A DNA stretch of 43,962 nucleotides, taken from Gaiellales bacterium. GTDB lineage: Bacteria; Actinomycetota; Thermoleophilia; Gaiellales; F1-60-MAGs149. Location: the NCBI GenBank assembly GCA_049433345.1, contig JBMTER010000001.1, positions 1-43,962 on the forward strand, written 5' to 3'. Position 1 is the first letter of the stretch. Each line of letters opens with the position of its first letter. The notes under the pieces are model-generated. The model was not told where the DNA came from. It worked only from the letters and a program-made list of their open reading frames with translations, and did no database searches. Shown piece after piece: positions 1,395-41,220 of this stretch. The position numbers and the translations under genes were made by a program.

Positions 1395-1750
1395 GCCGCT
1401 GCCTGCGCGCTCTGCCCGACGAGCTCGGCGATCTCGGCGACGAGCCAGTCGAAGCCCTGCTGCTCGACGGCCGCGTCGAGACCCGGTCGGGCCACAAGCA
1501 CGACGTCCATCCCGACGGGCGGCTCCGGGAGCGCGGCGTACGCCTCCCGCAGCTGCCGCTTCAGGCGATTGCGGACGACAGCCCCGCCGACCTTGCGCGA
1601 GACGGCGACGCCGAGACGCGCCTCCTCCGCCTCGTTCGGAAAGGCGTAGGCGACGAGGTGCCGATTCGATGCGGAGCGGCCCCGACGGTAGACGGTGTCG
1701 AACTCCGCGGAGCGCGTCAGCCGGCCACGTCCCTGTGCGCCGCTCGGCAC
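1391..1750 (-). CDS. rnpA: ribonuclease P protein component
   Basis: 119-aa ORF with the basic RNase P protein motif [21 protein letters not shown]. It sits immediately downstream of rpmH. Confidence 0.92.
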
Positions 1751-1758
1751 GGACGTCC

Positions 1759-1893
1759 TCAGGCCGACAGGCGCTTGCGGCCGCGGGCGCGGCGGCGGCG
1801 GATGACGGCCTGCCCCGCACGATTCGACATGCGCTTGCGGAAGCCGTGGGTCTTGGCGCGCTTGCGGACGTTGGGCTGGTAGGTGCGCTTCAT
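1759..1893 (-). CDS. rpmH: 50S ribosomal protein L34
   Basis: ATG at 1891-1893 within ORF 1759..2115. The 44-aa product [44 protein letters not shown] is a canonical L34. Confidence 0.97.
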
Positions 1894-1990
1894 CTCGAAT
1901 CCGGTCCTGCGGGAGCGCGAAGCATACCGGTGGGGCCGCGCCCCGCCAAACCGGAACCGACGCGCGCGGACGATTCCGCCCCGCCCTGCG

Positions 1991-2022
1991 TTATCCACAG
2001 CCGGGGACAAGTCTGGGGACAG
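1991..2022. promoter_or_regulatory. DnaA-box cluster in the rpmH-dnaA divergent intergenic region
   Basis: A perfect consensus DnaA box TTATCCACA lies at 1991-1999. Two box-like 9-mers lie on the opposite strand: 2002-2010 (reverse complement TTGTCCCCG) and 2014-2022 (reverse complement CTGTCCCCA). The cluster is about 100-130 bp upstream of the dnaA ATG. Confidence 0.6.
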
Positions 2023-2120
2023 TGCTGTGGGCGACTCGTTTTTCCCGCAAACAGCGGAATTCCCCAGGTGCGGCGGCCTACCCAGCGGCCGCGTGTCGCT
2101 GCTACCGTCGCGCACTCGAT

Positions 2121-3497
2121 ATGACGCGACCGGCTCCCTCCGCTCCGGCCAGCGATCTCTGGAGTGCGGTCTCGCATGAGCTCCAGCAGACGCTCGCCCC
2201 CTCCACGTACAGCGCCTGGTTCGGACGCGCGGAGCCCGTGCTGCTGGCCGGCGATCGGCTCGAGGTCGCGGTTCCGAACGACTTCGTGCGCGGCTGGATC
2301 TCCGGGCACTTCATGGACCTCGTGGTCGCCGCCGCGACGACGGCGCACGGGGCTCCCGTCGAGGTGGCGCTCGTCCTCGGGGCGGAGGGCCCCGAGGCGG
2401 CGCCCGACGATCCGCCCGCGATGCCGGTCGCGGCACCCGTGGCGGCCGTGGCGGCCGAGCCGGAGCGCCCGGTCAACCTGAACCGCAACGCGACGTTCGA
2501 CTCCTTCGTCATCGGTCCCTCGAATCGCTTCGCGCATGCCGCCGCCCTCGCCGTGGCGGAGGCGCCGAGCCAGGCCTACAACCCGCTCGTCATCCACGGC
2601 GCGACGGGGCTCGGCAAGACGCATCTGCTGCAGGCGATCGCGCACTACGTGACCGTCTCGAACCCGCGCCTGCGGACGTGCTACGCGACCTGCGAGTCGT
2701 TCACCAACGACTTCATCGAGGCTCTCCGCGAGAAGCGCATCGAGCAGTTCAAGAACCGCTATCGCGGGTACGACGTGCTGCTGATCGACGACATCCAGTT
2801 CCTGTCGGGACGCGAGGGCATCCAGGAGGAGTTCTTCCACACCTTCAACGCGCTGCACGAGGGCGGCAGCCAGATCGTGCTCTCCTCGGATCGGCCCCCG
2901 AAGGAGATCGCTCGGCTGGAGGACCGCCTGCGCTCCCGATTCGAATGGGGCCTGATCACGGACGTCCAGACGCCCGACCTGGAGACGCGCATCGCGATCC
3001 TGCGCAAGAAGGTCGCCCGGGACGGCGTGGTGATCGACGACGTGGAGGTGCTCGCGCAGATCGCGATGCGGGTGCAGACCAACATCCGCGAACTCGAGGG
3101 GGCGCTGACCCGCAGCGTCGCCTTCGCCACGCTCAACGACGAGCCGTTGACGGTCGAGCTCGTCCGCGACGTGCTCAGCAGCCAGTATCCGGAGGATGCG
3201 CGTCCGGTCACCGTGGAGGGCGTGCAGCGGGTCGTCGCGGAGTACTTCTCGCTGACGGTCGAGGATCTCCGCTCGGAGCGGCGGACGCAGACGGTGGTCT
3301 TCCCGCGCCAGGTCGCGATGTACCTGTCCCGCGAGCTGACGGATCTGTCGCTTCCCCGTATCGGGCGGATGTTCGGCGGACGCGATCACACGACGATCCA
3401 CTACGGGCACGACAAGATCGCCCGGCGCATGAAGGAGGATCGTTCGTTGTACAACCTGATCCAGGAGTTGACGTCGACGATCAGGCGGCTCGGATGA
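2121..3497 (+). CDS. dnaA: chromosomal replication initiator protein DnaA
   Basis: ORF 2022..3497. I prefer ATG 2121 ([17 protein letters not shown]...) as the start. It has the AAA+ Walker [12 protein letters not shown], Walker B LLIDDIQF, and a C-terminal DNA-binding domain ([37 protein letters not shown]). Confidence 0.95.
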
Positions 3498-3507
3498 GCC
3501 GCTCGGC

Positions 3508-3704
3508 TGGGGATGGCGCGGTGGATCGGGTTGGGGATCAAGGGGCACGACCGTGCTCCGCATCCCCCGCCCGTGGGACGCGCCGATGGCGTCGCCGCGC
3601 AGCCGGGGACGCCATGCCCCGGGATCCCCACGCCATCCCCAGGCGATCCACCCGTCGAGAAGGCTCGTGGAGCCGAAACCCGACATTCGTCCCCGTCCTC
3701 CACA
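3508..3704. promoter_or_regulatory. candidate oriC: dense array of DnaA-box-like 9-mers between dnaA and dnaN
   Basis: Bottom-strand boxes: CCATCCCCA (3508-3516), CGATCCACC (3520-3528), TGATCCCCA (3532-3540). Top-strand boxes: GCATCCCCC (3560-3568), GGATCCCCA (3622-3630), CCATCCCCA (3633-3641), CGATCCACC (3644-3652), TCCTCCACA (3696-3704). The core ATCC(A/C)C(A/C) matches positions 3-9 of TTATCCACA. Actinobacterial oriC is classically located between dnaA and dnaN. Confidence 0.65.
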
Positions 3705-3765
3705 GGCCCTATGGTGATGACTATCTCAAAGAGCCTCTAACCACTTCAACCACCATGGGAATCGC
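3705..3765. other. AT-richer segment, candidate DNA-unwinding element (also the dnaN leader)
   Basis: ggccctatggtgatgactatctcaaagagcctctaaccacttcaaccaccatgggaatcgc. By hand count it is roughly half G+C, in a window that is otherwise far more G+C-rich. It directly follows the last DnaA-box-like site. Confidence 0.4.
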
Positions 3766-4866
3766 ATGAGGATCCGCTGCACCCGAGAGCATCTCGCCGA
3801 GCGCCTGGCGCAGGCGGCGCGTGCCGCGTCGACGCGGGCGAACCTCCAGAGCGCCGCGCACGTCCGCCTTGACGCGAGCTCGGGCGAGGCGCCCGCCCAG
3901 CTCATCGCTACCGATCTCGAGATGACCCTACGCGTTCCCCTCGACGTCGAGGTCGAGGAGCCCGGAAGCGTGCTCCTCCCCGCGAAGATCGCACCCGAGC
4001 TCGTGCGGGCGCTGGCCGGGGAGCAGATCGAGCTCGCCACCGGCGATGGCGGCGTGGTCGTGTCGGCGGGCTCCTCGACGTACACCCTCTTCGGGCTGCC
4101 CGTCGACGAGTTCCCGCAGGTGCCGGAGGTCGATCACGAGCGTGCGTTCGAGACCGATGCCGCGGTCTTCGCGGAGACCGTGGCGCGGATCAAGCGGGCG
4201 GCGAGTCGGGACGAGAGCCGCCCGGTCCTGACCGGTGCCCTCGTGCGCTTCGAGGCGGAGCGCCTTGTCATGGCCGCCACCGACTCCTATCGCCTGGCGG
4301 TCTCCGAGGCCCCCCTGGCGAGCGCGCCGCCCGAACCCCTCGAGGCGATCATCCCCGTACGCGCGCTCGAGGAGGCGGTTCGCATCGCCGCCGACGACGG
4401 TGGCGCGCTGACGGTCTCGATCGGCGAGGGGCTGGTCAGCTTCGGCGCCGGCGGTGTCTGGCTGAGCGCCCGTCGGATCGAGGGGCAGTTCCCGAACTTC
4501 TCGGCCCTGCGCCCCGAGGGGATCGACCATCACGTCACGATCGCCAAGGACGAGCTCCTGGAGAACGTCCGCCGTGTCGGCATCGTCGCCCGGCAGAACA
4601 CCCCGGTGCGGGTCGAGTTGGCGCCCGGGCAGCTGAGCCTCTCCGCCCGCACCGCGGATGTCGCCGAGGGCGCGGAGACGATCCCCGTCGGCTACGACGG
4701 CACGGAGACCGTGGAGATCGGCTTCAACCACGAGTTCCTCCGCGACGGCATCGAGAGCGTGCCCGGCGACGAGGTCCGGCTCGGGCTGATCTCGTCACTG
4801 CGCCCGGCGCTGCTCGAGAGCGTCGACGGCACGTTCTGGTACGTCATCATGCCGATCCGGCTCTAG
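3766..4866 (+). CDS. dnaN: DNA polymerase III beta sliding clamp
   Basis: 366-aa ORF in the conserved position after dnaA. It has clamp-like sequence throughout (ATDLEMTLRVPLDV..., RPVLTGALVRFE..., ATDSYRLAV..., RIEGQFPNF..., FNHEFLRDGIES..., YVIMPIRL at the C-terminus). Confidence 0.95.
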   Translation: MRIRCTREHLAERLAQAARAASTRANLQSAAHVRLDASSGEAPAQLIATDLEMTLRVPLDVEVEEPGSVLLPAKIAPELVRALAGEQIELATGDGGVVVSAGSSTYTLFGLPVDEFPQVPEVDHERAFETDAAVFAETVARIKRAASRDESRPVLTGALVRFEAERLVMAATDSYRLAVSEAPLASAPPEPLEAIIPVRALEEAVRIAADDGGALTVSIGEGLVSFGAGGVWLSARRIEGQFPNFSALRPEGIDHHVTIAKDELLENVRRVGIVARQNTPVRVELAPGQLSLSARTADVAEGAETIPVGYDGTETVEIGFNHEFLRDGIESVPGDEVRLGLISSLRPALLESVDGTFWYVIMPIRL

Positions 4867-4868
4867 CG

Positions 4869-5924
4869 ATGCGCATCGAGCGGTTGCGGCTGGCGGATGT
4901 CCGCTGCCATGCCGCGGCGGAGCTCGCGCCGGCCGGCGGCGTCACCGCGATCGTCGGACCGAATGGATCGGGCAAGACCTCGCTGCTCGAGGCCCTCCAC
5001 CTCGGCCTGCGCGGAACCGGCCTACGGCCCGCCGGCGACGCCCGCATGGTCCGCGACGGCGCCGCGCGCCTCGGCGTCCGCGTCGAGGGCGAGGCGGGTG
5101 GTGCGGCGAGCATCACGCGGATCGACCTCGCACCCGGCGGTCGGCGCATCGAACTCGACGGCGTCGAGGTCGACGCCCGCACGCTGCGCGAACGCTGGGC
5201 GGCGGTCGTCTTCATCCCGGACCTGCTTGACCTCGTCAAGCGCGGGCCCGTGGTGCGCCGGCTGGCGTTGGATCGCGCGATCGAGCTCGCCTGGCCGCGC
5301 TTCGAGGAGCACGAGCGGGCCTATCGGCACGCCGTCGAGCAGCGGAACGCCGTCCTGCGCCGGGTCCGCCGGGGCGGCACTCCCGCCGAGCTCGACCCCT
5401 GGGACGAGCAGGTCGCCGAGCACGGTGCGGTAGTGGTCGAGGCCCGCGATCGCCTCGTCACCCGTCTCGCCCCGCTGTTCGCCGACCGCGCGGCGGCCCT
5501 CGGCGGCGACCGACCCGCCTCCCTCGCGTACCGGGCATCGATCGCCGGCGACCCGGCGGCGCTGAGGTCCGCGCTCGAGGCCGGCCGCGCGCGCGACATC
5601 GAGCGGCAGACCACGGGCTGCGGTCCGCACCTCGACGACCTCGAGGTGGCGCTCGACGGGCGCGACGCCCGCCGCAGCGCCTCCCAGGGCGAGCAGCGGA
5701 CCCTCGTCCTGGCCTTCCTGCTGGCGCAGGCCGCCCTGGTCGGGGAGGCCCGTGATGAGCGTCCCATCCTGCTCCTCGACGACGTCCTCTCGGAACTCGA
5801 CCGCGACCGACGCGCACGCCTCGTCGAGCTGGCACGCACGCATGGGCAGACGCTGCTGACCGCGACCGGCGCGGATGGGGTCGACGCGCTCGCCGATGCG
5901 GTGCACGCGCTGGGGACGGCCTGA
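4869..5924 (+). CDS. recF: DNA replication/repair protein RecF
   Basis: 351-aa ORF with N-terminal Walker A GPNGSGKTSLLEAL, signature-like SQGEQRTLVLAFLLA and Walker B ILLLDDVLSELD. It follows the dnaA-dnaN-recF order. Confidence 0.93.
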   Translation: MRIERLRLADVRCHAAAELAPAGGVTAIVGPNGSGKTSLLEALHLGLRGTGLRPAGDARMVRDGAARLGVRVEGEAGGAASITRIDLAPGGRRIELDGVEVDARTLRERWAAVVFIPDLLDLVKRGPVVRRLALDRAIELAWPRFEEHERAYRHAVEQRNAVLRRVRRGGTPAELDPWDEQVAEHGAVVVEARDRLVTRLAPLFADRAAALGGDRPASLAYRASIAGDPAALRSALEAGRARDIERQTTGCGPHLDDLEVALDGRDARRSASQGEQRTLVLAFLLAQAALVGEARDERPILLLDDVLSELDRDRRARLVELARTHGQTLLTATGADGVDALADAVHALGTA

Positions 5925-6397
5925 TGCGACGCCGCCGACCGGGGGACGCGATGCGGATGCCGCAGCAGCTCGCGGCGGATATCGGGTCCGCGGCCGGTCC
6001 GGACCTCGGGCCGCTGCGTCGGGTGGCGGCCGTCTGGTCGGAGGCGGTCGGCGAGCAGCTGGCCCGCGTCGCCCGGCCCGCGCGGCTGACGCGGAGCGGA
6101 GCGCTGGTGGTGCATGCGGCCGACGCCAGTTGGATGCACGCCATCGCCCTCGAGGAGCGTCGGATCCTGCGTCGCCTCGGAGAGGCCCTCGGGGGGGATG
6201 GGCCGACGTCCCTCATGGTGGAGGTCGGGGACGTTGCGCCCCCGGTGGAGCCGGTCGCCGAAGCCTCCCCGGAGCCCCCGGGGGAGGAGGCCCGGCGGCG
6301 GGCCGTGGAGTTGACCGCGGACGTCGCCGACCCGCGACTGCGAGCGGCGCTCGAGCGGCTTGTCGCGCACTCCCTCCAACGCCGGAAAACGCCGTAG
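5924..6397 (+). CDS. DUF721 / DciA-like protein (recF-gyrB spacer gene)
   Basis: 157-aa ORF. Its ATG overlaps the recF stop by 1 nt (TGATG). The segment VWSEAVGEQLARVARPARLTRSGALVVHAADASWMHAIALEERRILRRL is typical of DUF721 proteins encoded between recF and gyrB in Actinobacteria. The true start may be one of the downstream Met codons. Confidence 0.72.
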   Translation: MRRRRPGDAMRMPQQLAADIGSAAGPDLGPLRRVAAVWSEAVGEQLARVARPARLTRSGALVVHAADASWMHAIALEERRILRRLGEALGGDGPTSLMVEVGDVAPPVEPVAEASPEPPGEEARRRAVELTADVADPRLRAALERLVAHSLQRRKTP

Positions 6398-6400
6398 TAA

Positions 6401-11474
<5,074 letters not shown>

Positions 11475-18906: not shown

Positions 18907-19783
18907 GGTCACCGACGAGGTACGACGCCTGCGCAAGCGCTTCGAGGCGCGGGCCGAGGAGTCGCAGGTCTGGGATGCGGTGCAGCTGGCGCGGCACGCC
19001 GAGCGGCCGTACACGCTCGACTACGCCGAGCGCCTGTTCACGGACGCGTTCGAGCTGCGTGGCGACCGGGCCTTCTCCGACGACGAGGCGCTGATCACGT
19101 TGCTGGCCCGCTACCACGGCCAGACGGTCGTCGCGATCGGCCACCAGAAGGGCCGCGACCTGGCGGAGCGGACGCGGCGAATGTTCGGGATGCCGCATCC
19201 GGAGGGGTACCGCAAGGCGATCCGCGCCGTCGAGCTCGCTGATCGCTTCGGCTATCCCGTCCTGACCTTCGTCGACACGCCCGGTGCGTATCCGGGCGTG
19301 AACGCGGAGGAGCGCGGCCAGGCCGGCATGATCGCCCGCTCGATCCTCGCGTTCTGCCAGGCGTCGGTGCCGATCGTGAGCACCGTGATCGGCGAGGGCG
19401 GCTCGGGTGGCGCGCTCGCCATCGCGGTCGGCGACCGCGTGCTGATGCAGGAGAACGCGATCTACAGCGTGATCTCCCCCGAGGGCTGCGCGGCGATCCT
19501 CTGGAAGGACGCAGGCCAGGCGCGCAAGGCCGCGTACGCCTTCCGGCCGACGGCGGGCGCCTGCCTCGACCTCGGCGTCGTCGATGCGATCGTGGATGAG
19601 CCCCGGGGCGGCGCGCACGAGGACGCCGATGAGGCGGCGCGCCTGCTCGATCAGGCGATCCGCGGCGCGCTCGCCGAGGCTGAGGCGATCTCGCCTGCGG
19701 CCCGCCGTGCCGCGCGCCGGGCGAAGTTCCGGCAGATGGGCGTGTGGGGCGTCGCCGATGAGGCCGGCGGCACGGTCGCCTGA
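18899..19783 (+). CDS. accA: acetyl-CoA carboxylase carboxyltransferase alpha subunit AccA
   Basis: Putative GTG 18899, giving an 8-nt overlap with accD. Motifs: ERPYTLDY, MFGMPHPEGYRKA, FVDTPGAYPGV and IGEGGSGGALA. The exact start is uncertain. Confidence 0.87.
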   Translation: MVRVTDEVRRLRKRFEARAEESQVWDAVQLARHAERPYTLDYAERLFTDAFELRGDRAFSDDEALITLLARYHGQTVVAIGHQKGRDLAERTRRMFGMPHPEGYRKAIRAVELADRFGYPVLTFVDTPGAYPGVNAEERGQAGMIARSILAFCQASVPIVSTVIGEGGSGGALAIAVGDRVLMQENAIYSVISPEGCAAILWKDAGQARKAAYAFRPTAGACLDLGVVDAIVDEPRGGAHEDADEAARLLDQAIRGALAEAEAISPAARRAARRAKFRQMGVWGVADEAGGTVA

Positions 19784-19784
19784 G

Positions 19785-20645
19785 TCACGGCACGAGCGGA
19801 AACGGGCGTCGCGCCAGGCCGATCGCGGCCTGCGCCGATACCCACACCGGGGTGATCGGGACGCCGCGCTGGTACGCGATCGAGCCGTCTGACCGGGCCA
19901 GGCGCCGCAGGTGCGCCTCGGCCGCGGCGTCGCGGCGACCGGCCGCGGCGAGGCCCTGGATCACCCAGGCCGTCGACTGGGCGTCGGACCGCGCACCTCG
20001 GGTCAGGGCATAGCCGCCATCCGCGGTGCGGAAGCGCCTGAGCGCGCGCAGCGCGCGTCGAATGCGGGGGTCGGAGCGCGGTACCCCGGCGGCGACGGCC
20101 GCTGCGATGCCGGATGCGGTGAGGTTCGAATCGCCGTCTCCGCCGGGCGCGACCGGCCAGCTGCCGTCCGGGTTCTGGTCGCGCAGGAGCGTGGCCCGCG
20201 CGGCCGCGGGTACGCGGCGCCCGAGCGCCCGCAGCGCGAGGATCCCGAACTGGTTCGAGGCCACTGTGGGACCGATCCGTCCGCCGCGAAGCTGACGTGT
20301 CAGCAGCGTGGTCAGGTTGCGGCCGCCGGCCCGTCGGGGATCGCGTCCCGCGGCGACCAGGGCGAGGATCGCGATCTGGACGTCGGTCGCCGAGCGCAGC
20401 TCGCCCGAGCGGCTGGCGATGCAGCCCGCCGCGGCGGAGGCGGAGCGGCCGGCGGCGACCAGGCCGAGGGCGGCCCAGGCGGTCAGGTTCGCCGACGGCG
20501 CGCCGCCGGGTTCAGCGGCGCAGCCGCGGGCATCGAGGCTGTTCGTCAGATAGGTCCCGACCCGGACCAACTCGGGGCTGCGTGCGCCTCCCGCGGCCGG
20601 TGCGAGCAGGAGCAGCGCGAGCGCGAGCAGCACCGCGCGCGTCAC
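19785..20645 (-). CDS. secreted prenyltransferase/squalene-oxidase-repeat (alpha/alpha-toroid) protein, last gene of the B12-riboswitch operon
   Basis: GTG 20643-20645 overlaps the upstream stop (GTGA) and is preceded by GGGGGAGG. It has the signal peptide VTRAVLLALALLLLAPAAGGA. Repeats of the prenyltransferase-like type are present: QNPDGSWP, TADGGYAL...AQSTAWVIQGLAAAG, SDGSIAYQ. Confidence 0.7.
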   Translation of the reverse strand: MTRAVLLALALLLLAPAAGGARSPELVRVGTYLTNSLDARGCAAEPGGAPSANLTAWAALGLVAAGRSASAAAGCIASRSGELRSATDVQIAILALVAAGRDPRRAGGRNLTTLLTRQLRGGRIGPTVASNQFGILALRALGRRVPAAARATLLRDQNPDGSWPVAPGGDGDSNLTASGIAAAVAAGVPRSDPRIRRALRALRRFRTADGGYALTRGARSDAQSTAWVIQGLAAAGRRDAAAEAHLRRLARSDGSIAYQRGVPITPVWVSAQAAIGLARRPFPLVP

Positions 20646-21274
20646 GGTCCCGCCTCCCCCGCGGTCGGCGGCGTGGTCCAGCGTCCGCGGACGCGGACGG
20701 CGCTGCGATCGACGAGAGCGATCAGCGAGGGACCGGTGAGGCCGAGGATGGTGGCCGTCGCGACTGCGTGGGCGATGTCGAAGGGAACCGCGCGCACGTG
20801 GATCGCCGCGAATGCGGTCAGGGACAGGGACGGCCCGAACGCGGCCAGTTGCCAGACGTCCATCAGGGCGCCGAACGCCGCGGAGACGACGACGCCGAGA
20901 CCGACGAGCGCCCAGCGCGAACGCCGCAGCGTCGGGGCGAGCAGGCCGCCCGCGAGTCCGGCGGCCCCCCACAGCAGCATCTGCCACGGCGTCCACGGGC
21001 CCTGGCCGAGGAAGGCGTTCGACACGAGGGCGCTACCGGCGCCGACGGCGACGCCGGCACGGGGTCCGAGCGCGACGCCCGCGATGATGGCGATCGCGGT
21101 GATGGGCTGGGCGCCGGGCACGGCGACGAAGAGGACGCGTCCGGCGCTGGCCGCGGCTATCAGCACGGCGACCAGCCCGATCTCTCGCGAGCCGGACCGG
21201 CCGCGCTCGTAGAGGGCGAGCCCGGCGACCAGGAGGACGAGCCCGCCGAGGGCGACCAGCGCTCCCGCGCTCAT
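20642..21274 (-). CDS. ECF-transporter S-component-like integral membrane protein
   Basis: Last 210 codons of ORF 20642..22483. ATG 21272-21274 overlaps the ATPase stop (ATGA). It is a roughly six-TM hydrophobic protein with AQPITAIAIIAGVALGPRAGVAVGAGSALVSNAFLGQGPWTPWQMLLWG, which I recognise as ECF S-component-like. Confidence 0.68.
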   Translation of the reverse strand: MSAGALVALGGLVLLVAGLALYERGRSGSREIGLVAVLIAAASAGRVLFVAVPGAQPITAIAIIAGVALGPRAGVAVGAGSALVSNAFLGQGPWTPWQMLLWGAAGLAGGLLAPTLRRSRWALVGLGVVVSAAFGALMDVWQLAAFGPSLSLTAFAAIHVRAVPFDIAHAVATATILGLTGPSLIALVDRSAVRVRGRWTTPPTAGEAGP

Positions 21275-22671
21275 CGTGCCGCCTCGCGTACCGCCTCGGG
21301 AATGGGCTCGCCGGTCACCAGTCGCCCATCGCCGACGATCCAGAGCGCGTGCGCGGTGGCGCGCACGAAGGCCCGGTCGTGCGTGGCGGTGATCACCGAG
21401 AGGCCTCGGGCGTGACGCTCGCCGAGGATTCGCACGAGAGTCGCCCGGTGCGCGGCGTCCATGCCTCGGGTCGGCTCGTCGAGGAGCAGAATCGTGGGAT
21501 CGACGGCGAGGGCCGCGGCGATCGCGACGCGCTCGCGCTCGCCGACGGAGAGATCGCGCGGATGCCGCTCGAGCAGTTCCGACAGGCCGAGGTCGGCGAT
21601 CGCGCGGTCGGCCGGGCCCGGGGGCATGCCGAGCGCGTCCGCGCCGCGGCGTATCTCCGCCTCCGCCGTCGCCTCGAGCAGCGTGCGCCCGGGATCCTGC
21701 GGCACGAGGCGGATCTCCGGCACTCGCTCGGCGGCGGGAACGCCTGTGAGATCGCGGCGCGCGGTCCGGATCGCGCCCGCGAGCGGGGCGTCGAGGCCCG
21801 CGATCGCGCGCATGAGCGTCGACTTGCCGGCGCCGTTCGGTCCGGTCTGGGCGATCGACGCCCCCGTGGGGCGCGAGGCGCTGGCGCCGCGCAGGACGCG
21901 CCGCCCGCCGCGGTCGAGCTCGACCCCCTCGAGGACGAGCGCCGGCTCGGCCGCGCGCCCGGGGGCGGGCGCCGACCGCGGGTAGGACGGTGCGGCGGGT
22001 GCAGCGCCGATGCGACCGGCGACGATCCCCAGCACCTCGTCTGCCAGGTGCCCGACGCGGTCGGTGCGGTGTTCGGAGATCACGATCGCCAGGCCGCGGT
22101 CCGCGAAGCGGCGCAGGTGGCCGACGAGCTCGCAGGCGGCGTCGTCGTCGAGCTGGGCGGTGGGCTCGTCGAGCAGGAGCAGGGCGGGCTCGGGGGCCAG
22201 CACGGCGGCGAGGGCGACGCGCTGGCGCTCGCCGCTCGAAAGGGCATCGAGGCGCCGGCCGACCAGGTGCTCGCAGCCGACGGCGGCGAGCGCTGCGCGC
22301 GCCGCCGGCAGGATCCGCTCCTGCGCCCAGCCCCGGCACTGCAGTCCGTAGGCGACGTCCCGGAGCGTCTCGCCCATGACACCCTGGGCCTCGGGCTCCT
22401 GGAACAGGAAGCCGATCCGCTGCGCGAGGGCGCTCGGCTGGGCGGTGCGCAGGTCCAGTCCGGCGACGCTGCCGACGCCCCATGCCTCGCCGCCGTGGAA
22501 GGCCGGCGCGAGACCGGCGAGGACGCGAAGCAGGGTGGTCTTGCCGCCGCCGGATGGTCCTTCGAGGATCACGATCCGGCCCGGATCGACGACGAGGTCG
22601 ATGTCTCGCAGGCTCGGCGTGTCGGCACCGGGGTAGCGGTAGCCCACGCCTGCCAGCGCGATCGCGCTCAT
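21271..22671 (-). CDS. ECF transporter ATPase, fused EcfA-EcfA' (two ABC domains)
   Basis: ATG 22669-22671 lies within ORF 21271..23229. Each ABC motif occurs twice: Walker A (GPSGGGKTT; GPNGAGKST), signature (LSSGERQRV; LSVGERERV) and Walker B (LLLLDEPT; ILLLDEPT). Confidence 0.9.
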   Translation of the reverse strand: MSAIALAGVGYRYPGADTPSLRDIDLVVDPGRIVILEGPSGGGKTTLLRVLAGLAPAFHGGEAWGVGSVAGLDLRTAQPSALAQRIGFLFQEPEAQGVMGETLRDVAYGLQCRGWAQERILPAARAALAAVGCEHLVGRRLDALSSGERQRVALAAVLAPEPALLLLDEPTAQLDDDAACELVGHLRRFADRGLAIVISEHRTDRVGHLADEVLGIVAGRIGAAPAAPSYPRSAPAPGRAAEPALVLEGVELDRGGRRVLRGASASRPTGASIAQTGPNGAGKSTLMRAIAGLDAPLAGAIRTARRDLTGVPAAERVPEIRLVPQDPGRTLLEATAEAEIRRGADALGMPPGPADRAIADLGLSELLERHPRDLSVGERERVAIAAALAVDPTILLLDEPTRGMDAAHRATLVRILGERHARGLSVITATHDRAFVRATAHALWIVGDGRLVTGEPIPEAVREAAR

Positions 22672-23507
22672 CGCGGGCCTCGCAGCATCCGTGCCGAGGC
22701 TGCGCCGGCGCCGATCACGGCCGCGGCTCCAGCGAGCGCGGGGAGCGTGGCGATGGGATCGGCCTGCGGGTAGATCGCGTAGGGGAGCGTCCCGACGGCG
22801 AGCGCGATGGCGAGAAGGATCAGCCCGACGCCGACGAGCAGGGCGACCCGGACGGCGCGCGGTGCCGGATCCTCCGGCAGCTCGGTGAACGCGCCACCAC
22901 CGTAGCCGCGAGCCGCCATCGCCTCGGCGATGCCGACACCGCGGTCGAGGCTCGACGCGACGAGGGGCTCGACGAGGGCGGCCGCCTGCCGGGCCCGCGC
23001 GCGCCGTCCCGACTCCGCCCCGGTGCCGCGCAGGACGAGGGCCTCGCGAAGATCGGCTGCGTCGCGACGCAGCGCGGGTACGAGGCGGGCGGAGAGTGCC
23101 ACCGTCAGGGCCGAACGCGGCGCGATCCGCGCGACCAGCCCCTGCAGCCGGTCCGGATCGGCGAGGGCCAGGAACGCGGACGTCGCGATGATCGCCGTCG
23201 CGAGGCGCATGCCGCTGACGGCGCCCCACAGGAGCTCCTCCGCGGTGACCTCGAAGTCGACCAGCGAGAAGCCGGGACCCGACAGCAGCACGCGGTCGCC
23301 GGCGACGGCGAGGAACGGATTGAGCACCAGCAGCAGGAGGCCGGAGGTCGCCGCGAGACGCAGCATCAGACCATGGTCCACCGGTGCCGATCGGTAGAGC
23401 AGCACCGATGCGACGAGGGCAGCCGCCACCAGGGCCGGCTGGTCCGTGGCCAGCGATACGCCGATCAGCCCGGCGCAGACCACGAGGGGCGCACGCGGAT
23501 CGTTCAC
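22668..23507 (-). CDS. ECF transporter T component (CbiQ/EcfT family)
   Basis: 279-aa ORF with a GTG start overlapping the upstream stop (GTGA). It is a polytopic membrane protein. A central Arg-rich coupling-helix-like region (ALSARLVPALRRDAADLREALVLRG) is typical of CbiQ/EcfT. It lies adjacent to the ECF ATPase. Confidence 0.8.
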   Translation of the reverse strand: MNDPRAPLVVCAGLIGVSLATDQPALVAAALVASVLLYRSAPVDHGLMLRLAATSGLLLLVLNPFLAVAGDRVLLSGPGFSLVDFEVTAEELLWGAVSGMRLATAIIATSAFLALADPDRLQGLVARIAPRSALTVALSARLVPALRRDAADLREALVLRGTGAESGRRARARQAAALVEPLVASSLDRGVGIAEAMAARGYGGGAFTELPEDPAPRAVRVALLVGVGLILLAIALAVGTLPYAIYPQADPIATLPALAGAAAVIGAGAASARMLRGPR

Positions 23508-24406
23508 AGGGTCAGTCCCTGCCCGCCGCTGCAGGCGATCAGGCCCTCCTCGTCCAGGCAGATCGCGAAGTGCCGCGGCGGTAGCCGCGGGTTCGCGGCG
23601 AGCGCGGCCGCCGCCGCGGCCGCATCGGCCTCGCTCCGGCCCGCGATCACCACCACGGGCGCGCCGCTCGCCGTGAAGTCCTCAGTCGTGGCCACCACCA
23701 CGGCACGCGCCTTCGGAACGGGAACGGCGGCTCCGGCGGCGGCATCCCAGACGACGATCCGATCATCGTCGAACCAGGCGGTCAGGCCGGCGCGCTGCGG
23801 GTCCCGCAGCGCGGCACGCCACGTCGGATCGCGCTCGGCCAGCGAGGAGCTCGCTCCGCTGATCGCCCTCGGGCCGCTCGTCGCAGCGGGGGTCACGGCC
23901 TCCACGCCGGCTGCCGCGAGGGCGGTGGCGGCGGCGGGATCGGCGGTCACGTCCGCCACCTTCGCGCGCAGGCCCCGAGACAGGGGCGCCGGCCACTGCC
24001 CGATGATCGCCGGCACGTGGATGCGACCGGCCCAGCGGTGGAGATCCCACCAGACCGCATGCTCCGGGCCGACCTCGACCTCGGACGCGCCCACGTCCGC
24101 CTCGATCCCGTTGACCCAGAACAGCCACTCGCGGTCGCCGTCGCCGGCCTCGCCGTCGATCGCGCTGACGTAGCGACCGCCGTAGGTGGTCTCAACGGGG
24201 ACGACGGCCTCGGTGACGGACAGGACGGAGCCGGCGGGACCGCGACCCTCCGCGACCTTCGTGCGGCCCCAGTCGGCGGTGACGATCACGAAGGTCCCGG
24301 AGTCGACCGGCGCAGCGGCCGACTCCGGGGTTCCCTCTGTCTTCGACGTCCCGCATGCGGCCAGCACGAGGACGGCGACGAGCGCGCATGCGAGACGCGG
24401 GTTCAT
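23504..24406 (-). CDS. lipoprotein with DUF4430 (transcobalamin-like C-terminal) domain plus an uncharacterised C-terminal half
   Basis: 300-aa ORF with signal peptide and lipobox LVLAAC. Its DUF4430-type segment is YGGRYVSAIDGEAGDGDREWLFWVNGIEADVGASEVEVGPEHAVWWD. Confidence 0.7.
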   Translation of the reverse strand: MNPRLACALVAVLVLAACGTSKTEGTPESAAAPVDSGTFVIVTADWGRTKVAEGRGPAGSVLSVTEAVVPVETTYGGRYVSAIDGEAGDGDREWLFWVNGIEADVGASEVEVGPEHAVWWDLHRWAGRIHVPAIIGQWPAPLSRGLRAKVADVTADPAAATALAAAGVEAVTPAATSGPRAISGASSSLAERDPTWRAALRDPQRAGLTAWFDDDRIVVWDAAAGAAVPVPKARAVVVATTEDFTASGAPVVVIAGRSEADAAAAAAALAANPRLPPRHFAICLDEEGLIACSGGQGLTL

Positions 24407-24424
24407 GGCCTCAGGACGCTCGGG

Positions 24425-25105
24425 CTACGAGCCCATCGGCGCGAGGACGGCCTGGGAGTCGATCGCGCCCTTCATGGTCGCGACCGCCACGTCCCAGTCG
24501 CTGCCCGGATCGAGGTCGACGCTGAGAACGCCCTTCGCGTCGGTCACGCCGAGCGACACCCCGTCGGCGATCACGGACGCGCCCTTCGCCGCCTTCCAGC
24601 CCTTGCCGGAGGAGGTGCGCACCGTGAACACCGTGGTCCCGGAGGCGGTTACGCGATGGCGCAGATCGAGTACCGACGGGCCCCTTCTCGCGTAATTGCC
24701 GTCGAGGACCCAGAGCGCCCGATCCGACCGCTTCAGGACGAGCGAGCCGGCACCGACCGAGGCGGCCCTGCCGTTGACCCAGAGCATCCACGCGCCTCTG
24801 GCGCCGACGCGGATGGTGCCGATCGACTTCACGTACGGGCCCAGTCCGGCGAATTCGCTGACGACCAGAGGCGTGCCGGCGAAGGAGGTCGCCGCGACCA
24901 GCTGGCCGAGGGCGGTCTTGCGCGGCAGCATCATCGCGGTGCGGGAGTCGTTCACGTACGACCTGGCGCTGCCGGACACCCATTCGCGGTTGCCGAGCAG
25001 GCCACCCTGCTCGGTGGTGACGCGGATCGTCGCGGCCTGCGCGACGGCGGGGATGACCATGGTCGCGAGGGCGACGATGGTCACGAGGATCGTCCTCGTG
25101 GACAT
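24425..25105 (-). CDS. secreted DUF4430 (transcobalamin-like C-terminal) domain protein, first gene of the B12-riboswitch operon
   Basis: ATG 25103-25105 is preceded by GAAGGAG. The 226-aa product is the C-terminal part of ORF 24425..25924. It has the signal peptide MSTRTILVTIVALATMVIPAVAQA. Its DUF4430-type segment is GPYVKSIGTIRVGARGAWMLWVNGRAASVGAGSLVLKRSDRALWVLD. Confidence 0.7.
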   Translation of the reverse strand: MSTRTILVTIVALATMVIPAVAQAATIRVTTEQGGLLGNREWVSGSARSYVNDSRTAMMLPRKTALGQLVAATSFAGTPLVVSEFAGLGPYVKSIGTIRVGARGAWMLWVNGRAASVGAGSLVLKRSDRALWVLDGNYARRGPSVLDLRHRVTASGTTVFTVRTSSGKGWKAAKGASVIADGVSLGVTDAKGVLSVDLDPGSDWDVAVATMKGAIDSQAVLAPMGS

Positions 25106-25144
25106 CTGGAACTCCTTCTCTCGAGGTCCCCGGGCCGTCTGGTC

Positions 25145-25340
25145 CGAGGGGAGGTGGGTGTTCTGACTCGGCGCGCGCTTCCTCGGCTTCCCGAGGCCCC
25201 CGGACCCTGCCTTCCCAGCTCCGAGGAGCCAGTGACCGGTGCGCTGCACCGCGAACGGGGGACGTGCCTTACAGCGGCGGGACCGTGCCGGACTCGCACC
25301 GGACTTCCCCTGCCTCCGAACGCGACGGTAGCACACGCGC
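25145..25340 (-). promoter_or_regulatory. cobalamin (B12) riboswitch
   Basis: The minus-strand RNA reads GGAGGCAGGGGAAGUCCGGUGCGAGUCCGGCACGGUCCCGCCGCUGUAAGG ... GGUCACUGG ... CUGGGAAGGC ... GAGUCAGAACACCCACC. All conserved blocks of the cobalamin aptamer are present in the right order. These include the B12 box (plus-strand ttctgact at 25161-25168). It lies directly upstream of the 25105 start. Confidence 0.88.
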
Positions 25341-25364
25341 CGAGGCCTCCGCCATACTCGCGGA

Positions 25365-26873
25365 ATGCCCGAGCGCCTTCCCCGGCCCCGCATCGAGGGG
25401 CAGCACCTCGCCGTCTCGTGCGGCCACCCGCTCGCCGTCCAGGCCGGACTGCGCGTGGGTGCTGCCGGGGGCAACGCGATCGACGCGGCGGCGGCCGCGG
25501 CAGCCGCGCTGACGGTGATCCTCCCGGACGCCTGCGGGCTCGGAGGCGACCTGCTCTGCATCGTGCGCCGGGCCGACGGCACCGTCACGGCGATCAACGG
25601 CGTCGGTCGCTCGCCCGCCGCCAGCCGGCACCCGCTGCCGGAGGATGGGGCACAGGTGGCGGCGGTGCCGGGCTTCGTCGCCGGCGTCTGCGACCTGATC
25701 GACGCTGGCGGTCGGCTGTCACGGGCCGAGGTGCTCGCGCCGGCCCTCGAGCTGGCGGAGCACGGCGTCGCCGTGACCCGGGACACCGCGGAGGCGCTGG
25801 TCGCCAGTGCGGACCGCCTGACGCGAGGCGGAGCCGACGACTCGCCATGGGTCGCAGCCCGCCCGCGGGGCGCCGGGGCGATCGTGCGCCTGCCGCAGAC
25901 CGCCGCGACGTTGCGGGCCGTCATCGACGGAGGAGCCGAGGCGTTCTACTCGGGCCCGATCGCCGAGGCGATCGTGGCCGCGGTGGCGCGGGAGGGCGGG
26001 GTCATGGCGCTCGCCGACCTCGCCGGCCACGAGAGCGTCATCCGCGACCCCGTCGCCGTCGACTACCGCGGTACGACGGTCCTCGCACAGCCGCCGTCGT
26101 CACAGGCGATGCTGCTCACGATGGCGCTGCGTCGGCTTGCGGTCGAGCCGCGGTCCGATGCCTCGGCGGCGGCCCAGCACCGAGCCATCGAGGCCATCGC
26201 GGGCGCGTTCGCCTATCGCGATCGGATCACCGAGGATGGCGCCGACCGCGGACTGATGGATCTCGCCGACACGATCGCGATCGGGCCGCGGGCGAGTCGC
26301 GCTGATCACGCCCAGGGCTACAACCACACGACGTCGGTGACGGCGGCGGACCGCGAGGGCAACGTCGTGTCGATGCTGATCAGCGTCTTCGACAGCTTCG
26401 GCTGCGCGACGTGGGTCCCGGAGGGCGGCTTCTTCCTCAACGACCGGCTGCTCTCGTTCTCGCGCGACCCCGCCTCCCCGAACGCGGCCGCCGGAGGCAA
26501 GCGCCCCGTGCACACGCTGTCGCCGGCGATGCTCGTCGCGGGCGATCGCATCGTGGGCATCTCGACGCCGAGCGCGGACGGGCAGGTGCAGGCGCTCCTG
26601 CAGGTCGTGCTCGCGCACCTCGACGAGGGGCTGGATCTCGGTGACGCCTGCGACCGGCCACGCTGGCGCGTGGTGGGCGATCGACTGCACGTCGAGCAGG
26701 ATGCCGAGCGGGAGCTCACGGATGCCCTCGCCGCCCTCGGCCACGCGGTCGTAGCGGCGGAGGTCGGGGATAGCCTCTTCGGCAGCGTCTGCGCGGCGGA
26801 GGCGGACCTCGGCTCCGGCCTCGTGTCCTGCTGGGCGGATCCGCGCCGCGAGTCGTGGGCGGGGGCCTGGTAG
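25365..26873 (+). CDS. ggt: gamma-glutamyltransferase family protein (Ntn hydrolase)
   Basis: 502-aa ORF with N-terminal GHPLAVQAGLRVGAAGGNAIDAA. The autoprocessing/nucleophile Thr context is GYNHTTSVTAADREGNVVSMLISV, followed by GFFLNDRL. No obvious signal peptide. Confidence 0.87.
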   Translation: MPERLPRPRIEGQHLAVSCGHPLAVQAGLRVGAAGGNAIDAAAAAAAALTVILPDACGLGGDLLCIVRRADGTVTAINGVGRSPAASRHPLPEDGAQVAAVPGFVAGVCDLIDAGGRLSRAEVLAPALELAEHGVAVTRDTAEALVASADRLTRGGADDSPWVAARPRGAGAIVRLPQTAATLRAVIDGGAEAFYSGPIAEAIVAAVAREGGVMALADLAGHESVIRDPVAVDYRGTTVLAQPPSSQAMLLTMALRRLAVEPRSDASAAAQHRAIEAIAGAFAYRDRITEDGADRGLMDLADTIAIGPRASRADHAQGYNHTTSVTAADREGNVVSMLISVFDSFGCATWVPEGGFFLNDRLLSFSRDPASPNAAAGGKRPVHTLSPAMLVAGDRIVGISTPSADGQVQALLQVVLAHLDEGLDLGDACDRPRWRVVGDRLHVEQDAERELTDALAALGHAVVAAEVGDSLFGSVCAAEADLGSGLVSCWADPRRESWAGAW

Positions 26874-41219: not shown

Positions 41220-41220
41220 T

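What the first reader, a model, noticed from the sequence alone, without database searches (positions are those of the whole stretch)
19785..20645. Possible split bacterial transcobalamin: alpha/alpha-toroid protein plus DUF4430 proteins in one operon
Eukaryotic transcobalamin, intrinsic factor and haptocorrin sandwich B12 between two domains. One is an N-terminal alpha6/alpha6 barrel of the same fold class as prenyltransferase/terpenoid-cyclase toroids. The other is a small C-terminal beta domain, which InterPro equates with DUF4430 (transcobalamin-like C-terminal domain).

Here a secreted protein with prenyltransferase-type repeats (QNPDGSWP, ADGGYAL, SDGSIAYQ) is co-transcribed with two DUF4430 proteins (23504-24406 and 24425-25105), all under a B12 riboswitch. 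The two halves of a transcobalamin-like binder therefore appear to be encoded as separate polypeptides. This could illuminate the evolutionary origin of the animal B12 carriers.
Basis: inference. Interest (0 to 1): 0.8.

Follow-up and report, generated by a model that had tools for sequence, protein, structure and literature searches.

The report
B12 importer operon with transcobalamin-like helpers

Summary
On the minus strand, a cobalamin riboswitch (25309..25157) precedes six tightly packed genes. In order they are DUF4430-A, DUF4430-B (a lipoprotein), EcfT/CbiQ, a fused EcfAA' ATPase, a CbrT-like ECF S-component, and the 286-aa exported toroid protein (20645..19785).

AlphaFold2 gives a confident alpha/alpha toroid (pLDDT 95.6). 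The N-domain of DUF4430-B matches the beta domains of transcobalamin, intrinsic factor and haptocorrin.

The whole operon plus riboswitch recurs in 64 of 64 informative Thermoleophilia loci. Close toroid homologues are fused either to the S-component or to DUF4430.

The most likely function is a corrinoid ECF importer with extracytoplasmic capture and hand-off proteins.

The toroid shows no specific affinity to the transcobalamin alpha domain. hhalign gives 1.2% probability. The best sequence and fold matches are terpene cyclases and prenyltransferase beta subunits. The catalytic motifs of those enzymes are absent.

The idea is not new. Burroughs et al. (2007) described bacterial SLBB-toroid proteins in CbiQ/CbiO operons and their transfer to animals. 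Verplaetse et al. (2019) described separate "alpha" and "beta" transcobalamin-like proteins in an ECF operon.

Verdict: a new member of a known, biochemically untested kind.

The parts
25157..25309 (-). Cobalamin (B12) riboswitch aptamer. The expression platform and the ribosome-binding site (GAAGGAG) follow, down to the ATG at 25105.
   Evidence: Rfam RF00174 scores 49.5 bits against a gathering score of 31.5, E=1.6e-9. The sequence was read. A homologous element lies upstream of the operon in L001 and L002 and in 64 loci by nhmmer.
24425..25105 (-). DUF4430-A: a 226-aa secreted protein. It has a Sec signal peptide ending in AQA, an SLBB/transcobalamin-beta-like domain, and a C-terminal beta-rich domain.
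   Evidence: PF14478 scores 28.4 bits against a cut-off of 23.8. GC3 is 0.93. It is a paralogue of DUF4430-B (jackhmmer cross-hit at 2.6e-21). An A-type gene is present in all complete related loci. The fused homologue P0325 shows DUF4430 plus CarboxypepD_reg.
23504..24406 (-). DUF4430-B: a 300-aa predicted lipoprotein (lipobox LAAC at residues 15-18). The N-terminal domain has the transcobalamin-beta-like SLBB fold (residues ~38-125). The C-terminal alpha/beta domain (~150-300) has no confident structural match.
   Evidence: PF14478 scores 35.1 bits. The AlphaFold2 model has pLDDT 90.6. Foldseek hits are 3u7z (a bacterial DUF4430) at 3e-4, then transcobalamin 7qbe and 5no0 (TM-score normalised to the target 0.59), intrinsic factor 3kq4/2pmv and haptocorrin 4kki. 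Cys18 is conserved in at least 90% of sequences.
22668..23507 (-). EcfT (CbiQ-family) transmembrane coupling subunit.
   Evidence: PF02361 at 6.6e-16; TIGR02454 at 6e-10. Its start overlaps the DUF4430-B stop.
21271..22671 (-). Fused EcfA-EcfA' double ABC ATPase (466 aa).
   Evidence: Two ABC_tran domains, 1.9e-48. ECF_ATPase and cbiO families match in NCBIfam. Its ATGA start overlaps the EcfT stop.
20642..21274 (-). ECF S-component (210 aa), CbrT-like. This is the membrane-embedded substrate-binding subunit.
   Evidence: PF12822, PF07155 and DUF6580 match. The best PDB sequence match is 6FNP chain A, the CbrT subunit of the vitamin B12 ECF transporter, at E=6e-8; the next hit is at E=0.067. 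The identity of 6FNP is given in PMC5997447.
19785..20645 (-). Exported alpha/alpha-toroid protein (286 aa) with terpene-cyclase/prenyltransferase-type repeats and no catalytic motifs. This is the finding itself.
   Evidence: Pfam. The AlphaFold2 model has pLDDT 95.6 with 12 helices after the signal segment. Foldseek gives TM about 0.7 to class II terpene cyclases and farnesyltransferase beta. There is no DxDD or DDxxD motif and only one His. Cys42 and Cys75 co-vary, 29 sequences with both and 23 with neither. Its GTGA start overlaps the S-component stop.

Best explanation
The operon encodes a B12-repressed, dedicated (group I) ECF-type importer for cobalamin or related corrinoids. The core transporter is the CbrT-like S-component, EcfT and a fused EcfAA' ATPase.

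Three extracytoplasmic accessory proteins are attached to it:
- a secreted DUF4430/SLBB protein (A);
- a lipid-anchored DUF4430/SLBB protein (B);
- the alpha/alpha-toroid protein, which is non-catalytic and is held at the outer face of the membrane next to the S-component.

Proposed mechanism:
1. The SLBB domains capture scarce corrinoid outside the cell, using the same fold as the transcobalamin beta domain.
2. The toroid provides the second, cavity-bearing surface. It may close over the ligand with an SLBB domain in a transcobalamin-like two-part sandwich.
3. Because the toroid sits beside the S-component, it passes the ligand on to it.
4. The ECF module then moves the loaded S-component to bring the ligand into the cell, using ATP.

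Shown here: the gene set, the folds, riboswitch control, strict co-conservation and the gene fusions.

Inferred: ligand identity (from the riboswitch and the CbrT similarity), ligand binding by the toroid and SLBB proteins, and the hand-off order.
For: - **Regulation.** A cobalamin riboswitch precedes the operon in the window, in L001 and L002, in 64 Thermoleophilia loci, and in two more distant operons, L083 and L085.
- **Transporter identity.** The S-component's best solved relative is CbrT of ECF-CbrT (E=6e-8; PMC5997447). EcfT and EcfAA' are identified.
- **Translational coupling.** Four of the five gene junctions are 4-nt start/stop overlaps.
- **Toroid.** The model is a high-confidence alpha/alpha toroid. 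It lacks catalytic DxDD/DDxxD and Zn-ligand motifs. A co-varying Cys pair and the hydrophobic N-terminus indicate export.
- **DUF4430-B.** Its N-domain is structurally a transcobalamin/intrinsic factor/haptocorrin beta domain.
- **Co-occurrence.** All 64 informative loci carry at least two DUF4430 genes, EcfT, EcfAA', the S-component and the toroid in the same order.
- **S-component-toroid fusions.** The S-component and toroid form one reading frame, joined by a seventh hydrophobic helix, in 7 of 77 loci, in P0074 and P0075 and in about 38 of the best 148 family representatives.
- **DUF4430-toroid fusions.** These occur in 7 of those 148 representatives. P0325 lies in an equivalent riboswitch-ECF operon.
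- **Published predictions.** The same logic appears in PMC1796856 and bioRxiv 10.1101/864751.
Against: - No binding or transport was tested, and no complex prediction was possible.
- The toroid is not detectably closer to the transcobalamin alpha domain than to any other alpha/alpha toroid.
- The DUF4430-B profile finds no transcobalamin by sequence in the PDB. hhalign against transcobalamin is weak (4.9% probability, E=0.008), although it aligns the correct region.
- One related riboswitch-ECF operon (L085) has a triple toroid but no detectable DUF4430. The SLBB-toroid pairing is therefore not obligatory.
- The only experimentally studied operon of this design, in L. sakei, was reported as a heme importer, not a B12 importer.
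Confidence: 0.6

Rival explanations
1. The DUF4430/SLBB proteins alone are the corrinoid binders. The toroid never touches the ligand. It acts as a docking platform or cap fixed to the S-component that recruits loaded DUF4430 carriers, or that stabilises or gates the S-component.
For: S-component-toroid fusions are about five times commoner than DUF4430-toroid fusions among close family representatives (about 38 against 7 of 148; 7 of 77 loci). The toroid shows no specific similarity to the transcobalamin alpha domain. From established knowledge, the isolated beta domain of human transcobalamin binds cobalamin on its own (PDB 5np4, listed).
Against: L085 has a B12 riboswitch, three tandem toroids and an ECF module but no detectable DUF4430. 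A pure docking role for DUF4430 carriers would make no sense there. The nearly invariant polar residues of the family (D88, D172, D221-W227, T265-Q272) fall at the start of predicted helices, spaced like the repeats. That pattern suggests one shared site rather than a flat docking face, but this is an inference, because residue positions in the 3D model could not be inspected.
Confidence: 0.2
2. The transporter's substrate is not a corrinoid. It could be heme or another tetrapyrrole, as claimed for the L. sakei Lsa1836-1840 operon, or cobalt for B12 synthesis.
For: The L. sakei operon has the same parts list (S-component, AA', T, a DUF4430-like protein and a toroid protein) and was reported to mediate heme uptake. 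B12 riboswitches also control cobalt importers (established knowledge).
Against: The cobalamin riboswitch is conserved in front of every informative operon. The S-component is CbrT-like, not CbiM/CbiN-like. There is no heme-related gene or regulator in the operon or its flanks.
Confidence: 0.07
3. The toroid is an enzyme. It could be a class II terpene cyclase or prenyltransferase-like catalyst, or it could modify or remodel corrinoids outside the cell.
For: The best sequence and fold matches are squalene-hopene cyclases, drimenyl diphosphate synthase, MstE and farnesyltransferase beta. One QW-like motif, QNPDGSW, is present.
Against: There is no DxDD or DDxxD motif. The protein has one His and two Cys, and the Cys pair co-varies as a disulfide would, so there is no Zn site. 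It is predicted to be exported and is fused to ECF S-components and DUF4430 domains in relatives. At 286 aa it has only the single toroid domain.
Confidence: 0.04

Closest known systems
Lactobacillus (Latilactobacillus) sakei lsa1836-1840 ECF-like operon (Verplaetse et al., bioRxiv 10.1101/864751, 2019)
   Same: The parts list is the same: an ECF S-component, EcfAA', EcfT, an exported transcobalamin-beta-like (DUF4430-type) protein, and a separate exported toroid protein. The authors call the toroid the transcobalamin "alpha" subunit. By their own HHpred analysis it matched a geranylgeranyltransferase. The idea of a split transcobalamin-like extracellular binder feeding an ECF transporter is stated there explicitly.
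   Different: That system was assigned to heme uptake, and no B12 riboswitch is mentioned in the passages I read. It has one DUF4430-like protein rather than two, a different gene order, and comes from a low-GC Firmicute.
Bacterial transcobalamin-like SLBB proteins fused to alpha/alpha toroids in CbiQ/CbiO operons (Burroughs, Balaji, Iyer, Aravind 2007, PMC1796856)
   Same: These are secreted SLBB (transcobalamin C-terminal-like) domains, often with a second paralogous SLBB protein in the operon. They are combined with an alpha/alpha toroid and with CbiQ/CbiO-type transport genes. They were predicted to scavenge B12 and proposed as the source of the animal carriers. Fused homologues of this window's toroid were found here (P0325, P0237, P0266, P0286 and others).
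   Different: In the window the toroid and the SLBB domains are separate polypeptides. The toroid gene is translationally coupled to the S-component gene rather than to an SLBB gene.
ECF-CbrT vitamin B12 transporter of Lactobacillus delbrueckii (PDB 6FNP; Santos et al. 2018, PMC5997447)
   Same: The S-component is homologous (E=6e-8). Both have the EcfT plus two-ATPase-domain architecture.
   Different: CbrT uses a shared ECF module (group II) and has no known extracytoplasmic accessory proteins. Here the module is dedicated, the ATPases are fused, and three exported accessory proteins are co-encoded.
Animal transcobalamin / intrinsic factor / haptocorrin
   Same: The DUF4430-B N-domain has the beta-domain fold. 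The partner protein belongs to the same general alpha6/alpha6 toroid fold class as the alpha domain.
   Different: The animal carriers are one chain in alpha-then-beta order. The window's toroid shows no PF01122 or profile similarity to them. They are soluble plasma or gut carriers taken up by receptor-mediated endocytosis, not accessories of a membrane transporter.
NCBIfam NF053823, SCO2321 family membrane protein (Streptomyces)
   Same: This is the nearest curated NCBI family for the toroid part. The window protein scores 54.7 bits and relatives reach 104 bits.
   Different: All scores are far below the 300-bit cut-off. The matches cover only about model positions 50-200 of 405.

Membership tests
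Eukaryotic cobalamin carriers (transcobalamin/intrinsic factor/haptocorrin; Pfam PF01122 + PF14478) | An alpha6/alpha6 toroid domain | tested here: met
   The AlphaFold2 model has pLDDT 95.6 with 12 helices after the signal segment. Foldseek gives TM about 0.6-0.7 to alpha/alpha toroids. This is fold-class agreement only.
Eukaryotic cobalamin carriers (transcobalamin/intrinsic factor/haptocorrin; Pfam PF01122 + PF14478) | Sequence or profile homology of the toroid to the transcobalamin alpha domain (PF01122) | tested here: not met
   There is no PF01122 hit at E<=0.1 and no transcobalamin/intrinsic factor/haptocorrin hit in the PDB profile search at E<=1. hhalign against 24 mammalian transcobalamins gives 1.2% probability over 31 columns. 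None of these carriers is in the top 50 Foldseek hits. Caveat: the transcobalamin alignment was shallow (mammals only).
Eukaryotic cobalamin carriers (transcobalamin/intrinsic factor/haptocorrin; Pfam PF01122 + PF14478) | A beta domain of the SLBB/DUF4430 type | tested here: met
   PF14478 is above its gathering score in both proteins. Foldseek of the DUF4430-B model hits the transcobalamin beta domain (5no0, 5np4), intrinsic factor and haptocorrin at probability 0.96-1.0. The same Pfam model also marks mammalian transcobalamin sequences.
Eukaryotic cobalamin carriers (transcobalamin/intrinsic factor/haptocorrin; Pfam PF01122 + PF14478) | Both domains in one polypeptide, in alpha-then-beta order | tested here: not met
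   The domains are encoded by separate genes about 3 kb apart, with the transporter genes in between.
Eukaryotic cobalamin carriers (transcobalamin/intrinsic factor/haptocorrin; Pfam PF01122 + PF14478) | One cobalamin sandwiched between the two domains | not testable with these tools
   This needs multimer or ligand modelling, or biochemistry.
ECF-type ABC importer, B12-specific (CbrT type) | EcfT, two EcfA ATPase domains and a small integral-membrane S-component | tested here: met
   PF02361, two PF00005 domains, and PF12822/PF07155. NCBIfam ECF_T_CbiQ and ECF_ATPase also match.
ECF-type ABC importer, B12-specific (CbrT type) | The S-component is homologous to CbrT | tested here: met
   phmmer against PDB sequences gives 6FNP_A (CbrT) at E=6e-8 over 151 residues; the next S-component hit is at E=0.067.
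ECF-type ABC importer, B12-specific (CbrT type) | Transports cobalamin or cobinamide | not testable with these tools
   There is only regulatory evidence: the cobalamin riboswitch is conserved upstream.
Bacterial SLBB + toroid + CbiQ/CbiO B12-scavenging operons (Burroughs 2007; L. sakei lsa1836-1840 type) | Signal-peptide-bearing SLBB protein(s), an alpha/alpha toroid, and CbiQ/CbiO-type genes in one operon | tested here: met
   The operon is conserved in 64 of 64 loci.
Class II terpene cyclase / protein prenyltransferase beta subunit (enzymes) | An alpha/alpha toroid with QW/PFTB-type repeats | tested here: met
   PF13243 and PF13249 are above their cut-offs. Squalene-hopene cyclase matches at 3.7e-25 by profile. 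Foldseek top hits are 8paj, 8pak, 3sqc and 1ft2_B.
Class II terpene cyclase / protein prenyltransferase beta subunit (enzymes) | Catalytic DxDD (cyclase) or Zn-binding Asp/Cys/His (prenyltransferase) residues | tested here: not met
   There is no DxDD or DDxxD motif. The protein has one His, and its two Cys behave as a co-varying pair.
NCBIfam NF053823 SCO2321 family membrane protein | A score at or above the curated cut-off of 300 bits | tested here: not met
   The window toroid scores 54.7 bits. Fused relatives score 59-104 bits.

The most novel reading that the evidence does not exclude
ECF transporters are textbook examples of ABC importers that work without extracytoplasmic binding proteins. 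This conserved operon, and thousands of relatives, may be an exception. A toroid module, either fused to the S-component or encoded immediately after it, together with mobile SLBB carriers, may form a dedicated extracellular corrinoid capture-and-hand-off relay. The transient SLBB-B12-toroid sandwich in that relay would be the prokaryotic prototype of the transcobalamin two-domain clamp.
Probability: 0.35. Interest if true: 0.6.

Novelty: new member of a known kind. Interest (0 to 1): 0.35.

Why it matters
If the toroid and SLBB proteins do bind corrinoids and feed a CbrT-like S-component, this would be the first biochemically tractable case of an ECF importer with its own extracellular binding proteins. 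It would also be a bacterial model for how the transcobalamin-type two-part B12 clamp arose.

The family is large. There are 16,005 representatives (one per 50%-identity cluster) at E<=1e-3 and 1,122 at E<=1e-30, and at least 590 species-level genomes carry a relative. It also dominates B12 acquisition genes in the soil and freshwater class Thermoleophilia, so it is relevant to B12 cross-feeding in those communities.

The concept is already in the literature, however, so the window adds a clean, riboswitch-anchored example rather than a new idea.

Tried and rejected
1. **Sequence route from DUF4430-B to transcobalamin.** A 45-sequence profile found nothing relevant in PDB sequences. hhalign against transcobalamin was weak. 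Only the fold search made the link.
2. **Sequence route from the toroid to transcobalamin.** Pfam, the PDB profile search and hhalign were all negative. It matched database human TCN2 at 98-100% identity, and only database sequences were used in the alignment.
3. **Multimer prediction of toroid plus DUF4430.** This was not attempted. 
4. **Direct structural superposition on the transcobalamin alpha domain.** This was not possible. Transcobalamin may lie among the 118 hits with E<=1e-3, below rank 50.
5. **Sigma-70 promoter and intrinsic terminator scan of 19400-25800.** Nothing was found. This is uninformative in a 73% GC actinobacterium.
6. **Literature searches.**
   - "cobalamin riboswitch + ECF + prenyltransferase" returned no papers.
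   - "SLBB + cobalamin" returned nothing relevant.
   - "DUF4430" returned incidental mentions only.
   - The journal version of the L. sakei paper (PMC7480364) is not held.
7. **Enzyme reading of the toroid.** Rejected for lack of catalytic motifs, and because of its predicted export and its fusion partners.
8. **Chance co-location.** Rejected by the 64 of 64 conservation.
Full report
**What is in the window**

The window is 73% GC. It carries the chromosomal origin region: yidC, dnaA, dnaN, recF, dciA, gyrB and gyrA at 223-11474. The finding therefore sits in a housekeeping chromosomal context, not on a mobile element.

On the minus strand between 25309 and 19785 lies one compact transcription unit.
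- A cobalamin riboswitch sits at 25157-25309 (RF00174, 49.5 bits against a gathering score of 31.5).
- Six genes follow. They are joined by one 18-nt gap and four 4-nt start/stop overlaps.

The six genes, in order, are as follows.
1. DUF4430-A (25105..24425, 226 aa). It has a Sec signal peptide ending in AQA.
2. DUF4430-B (24406..23504, 300 aa). It has the lipobox LAAC.
3. EcfT/CbiQ (23507..22668).
4. A fused EcfA-EcfA' ATPase (22671..21271).
5. An ECF S-component (21274..20642).
6. The toroid protein of the finding (20645..19785, 286 aa).

The flanks are unrelated to the operon. A gamma-glutamyltranspeptidase gene is transcribed divergently upstream. A fabH/fabD/fabG/fabF-accA cluster converges on the toroid gene's stop codon. 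It did not state the strand and overlooked the three transporter genes in the middle.

**The toroid protein**

With a 52-sequence alignment, AlphaFold2 gives pLDDT 95.6 and pTM 0.90. The model has twelve helices after an N-terminal hydrophobic helix. Foldseek against the PDB returns class II terpene cyclases (8paj, 8pak, squalene-hopene cyclase, drimenyl diphosphate synthase, MstE) and farnesyltransferase or geranylgeranyltransferase beta subunits, with TM of about 0.6-0.7.

A profile search of PDB sequences also finds squalene-hopene cyclase first (3.7e-25) and nothing from transcobalamin, intrinsic factor or haptocorrin at E<=1.

Several features argue against an enzyme and for an exported binding module.
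- There is no DxDD or DDxxD motif and only one histidine.
- Its two cysteines co-vary perfectly across the family, 29 sequences with both and 23 with neither, as expected for a disulfide in an exported protein.
- The nearly invariant polar residues cluster in D88, D172, DAQSTAW at 221-227 and TPVWVTAQ at 265-272. These fall at the starts of the predicted helices H86-98, H173-185, H222-234 and H267-278. I infer that they line one mouth of the barrel. I could not inspect the coordinates to confirm this.

**Is it the "alpha half" of transcobalamin?**

At the level of fold class, yes. At any more specific level, I found no evidence.
- There is no PF01122 match.
- hhalign of the toroid family against 24 mammalian transcobalamins gives 1.2% probability. 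The only aligned piece is a generic toroid repeat (LLRDQNPDGSW against ILKAQTPEGHFGN).
- No cobalamin carrier appears among the 50 Foldseek rows shown.

Two caveats apply. The transcobalamin alignment was shallow. Transcobalamin could also lie among the 118 significant Foldseek hits below rank 50.

**The DUF4430 proteins**

Both pass the Pfam gathering score and are paralogues of each other. A 45-sequence profile of the B type finds nothing in PDB sequences. hhalign against transcobalamin is weak (4.9% probability, E=0.008), but it aligns the right region, transcobalamin residues 350-432.

Structure gives a clearer answer. The DUF4430-B model (pLDDT 90.6) matches:
- first, a bacterial DUF4430 crystal structure (3u7z);
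- then human and rat transcobalamin, including the isolated beta domain 5no0/5np4 (TM-score normalised to the target 0.59);
- then intrinsic factor and haptocorrin, all at probability 0.96-1.0.

The match covers residues ~38-125. The C-terminal alpha/beta domain (~150-300) has no confident match.

**The transporter**

The S-component's best solved relative is chain A of 6FNP (E=6e-8). The next S-component hit is at 0.067. 6FNP is ECF-CbrT, the vitamin B12 ECF transporter of L. delbrueckii (PMC5997447). Together with the riboswitch, this makes a corrinoid the most likely substrate.

**Conservation**

A scan of one genome per species found more than 590 loci encoding relatives of the toroid. The best 80 are all Thermoleophilia (Gaiellales, Solirubrobacterales and relatives) metagenome-assembled genomes.

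In all 64 loci with enough upstream DNA, the same ordered set is present: at least two DUF4430 genes, EcfT, EcfAA', the S-component and the toroid. A cobalamin-riboswitch-like element precedes it in each. Rfam confirmed the riboswitch in L001 and L002. The association is therefore not a chance neighbourhood.

**Gene fusions**

*S-component fused to toroid.*
- In 7 of 77 loci the S-component and the toroid are one open reading frame, joined by an extra hydrophobic helix.
- The same fusion is seen in P0074 and P0075.
- It is also seen in about 38 of the best 148 family representatives, each standing for a 50%-identity cluster.
- ECF S-components have six helices with both ends in the cytoplasm (established knowledge). 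The seventh helix therefore places the toroid outside the cell, right next to the S-component.

*DUF4430 fused to toroid.*
- Seven of those 148 representatives carry DUF4430 and the toroid in one chain, in either order.
- P0325 has DUF4430, then CarboxypepD_reg, then a toroid that is 39% identical to the window's toroid. It lies behind a cobalamin riboswitch and in front of EcfT-EcfAA'-S.
- P0286, from a 37% GC contig, is (toroid-DUF4430) twice over, in the transcobalamin-like order.

*Toroid without DUF4430.*
- L085 has a cobalamin riboswitch, a triple toroid, a PKD protein and an ECF module with a CbrT-like S-component. No DUF4430 is detectable.

The toroid is thus tied to B12-regulated ECF transporters in its own right. 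It is tied to DUF4430 often, but not always.

**Most likely mechanism**

I favour a B12-repressed corrinoid ECF importer (confidence about 0.6). Its SLBB proteins, one free and one lipid-anchored, capture the ligand outside the cell. Its toroid, stationed at the S-component, receives the ligand and passes it on. A transcobalamin-like SLBB-ligand-toroid sandwich is a plausible intermediate; I give that narrower step about 0.4.

The main rival is that the toroid only docks or caps and never touches the ligand (0.2). Heme or cobalt as the substrate (0.07) and an enzymatic toroid (0.04) are less likely, for the reasons given under each rival.

**Comparison with what is known**

Burroughs, Balaji, Iyer and Aravind (2007, PMC1796856) had already done the following.
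- They defined the transcobalamin-like SLBB clade.
- They noted bacterial fusions to alpha/alpha toroids in either order, paralogous SLBB proteins in the same operons, and linkage to CbiQ/CbiO.
- They predicted B12 scavenging.
- They proposed lateral transfer of a toroid-SLBB protein to animals.

Verplaetse et al. (bioRxiv 10.1101/864751) described the L. sakei lsa1836-1840 operon. It encodes an S-component, AA', T, and two separate exported proteins that the authors call the beta and alpha subunits of a transcobalamin-like binder. They modelled these as a heterodimer feeding the ECF transporter, although they assigned it to heme.

The "split bacterial transcobalamin" reading is therefore published. 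Relative to those reports, this window and its relatives add four points:
- a clean, universally riboswitch-anchored corrinoid context;
- a CbrT-like S-component;
- the two-paralogue SLBB arrangement with one lipoprotein;
- the prevalence of S-component-toroid fusions.

I found no paper reporting biochemical proof of corrinoid binding by any bacterial member.

**Verdict**

The operon is a new member of a known, computationally predicted and experimentally open kind. I score its interest as moderate to low (0.35).

Noticed in passing
L025, L056, L060, L062, L064, L070, L072 (S-component/toroid ORFs); P0074, P0075: In Thermoleophilaceae/Solirubrobacteraceae-type genomes the ECF S-component and the toroid are one reading frame, joined by an extra hydrophobic helix. 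About 38 of the best 148 family representatives have the same S-component-toroid architecture.
   Followed up: yes
L085:197-8845: A cobalamin riboswitch (38 bits) precedes a 930-aa protein made of three tandem toroids. A PKD-domain protein, EcfT, EcfAA' and a CbrT-like S-component follow. My HMMs found no DUF4430 domain, so the toroid can be linked to a B12-regulated ECF module without an SLBB partner.
   Followed up: partly
L083:1381-7241 (P0325) and L084:344-3592 (P0286): Two natural single-chain fusions were found. In L083, a B12 riboswitch precedes a DUF4430 + CarboxypepD_reg + toroid protein in an ECF operon on a 72% GC contig. In L084, a 37% GC contig encodes a 1082-aa protein with the unit toroid-DUF4430 repeated twice, in the transcobalamin-like alpha-then-beta order.
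   Followed up: partly
window 23504-23960 (-), residues ~150-300 of DUF4430-B: This is a well-predicted alpha/beta C-terminal domain with nearly invariant cysteines (C283, C292). It has no confident match in the PDB. It is about 80 residues shorter in most Gaiellaceae homologues.
   Followed up: no
L025, L062 and other Thermoleophilaceae-type loci: Seven of 65 loci carry three or four DUF4430 paralogues instead of two. In L025, L056, L062 and L070 the riboswitch lies 1-2 kb further upstream.
   Followed up: no
window 25157-25340 (-): The Rfam match of the window's riboswitch covers only model positions 46-168 of 189. Alignment with L001 and L002 shows that the 5' part is present but shortened. 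A CACCTCCCCTC stretch just 3' of the aptamer could pair with the GAGAAGGAG ribosome-binding site, which would give translational control. This was not tested.
   Followed up: partly
window 223-11474: This is the chromosomal replication-origin gene set: yidC (-), dnaA, dnaN, recF, a DciA-family gene, gyrB and gyrA. The B12 operon therefore lies about 10 kb from the origin-region genes.
   Followed up: no
window 24696-25166 (+): A 156-aa ORF with GC3 of 0.92 lies antisense to DUF4430-A. It shares the third codon position with the real gene (GC3 0.93) and is a mirror artefact typical of high-GC DNA.
   Followed up: yes
window 40365-41756 (-): A 463-aa ORF with high GC3 (0.89) and unusually high second-position GC (0.73). 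It has no Pfam match at E<=1e-6.
   Followed up: no
L001:1-3200: In the 50%-identity relative L001, selA, selB and a tRNA-Sec gene lie immediately upstream of the riboswitch operon.
   Followed up: no
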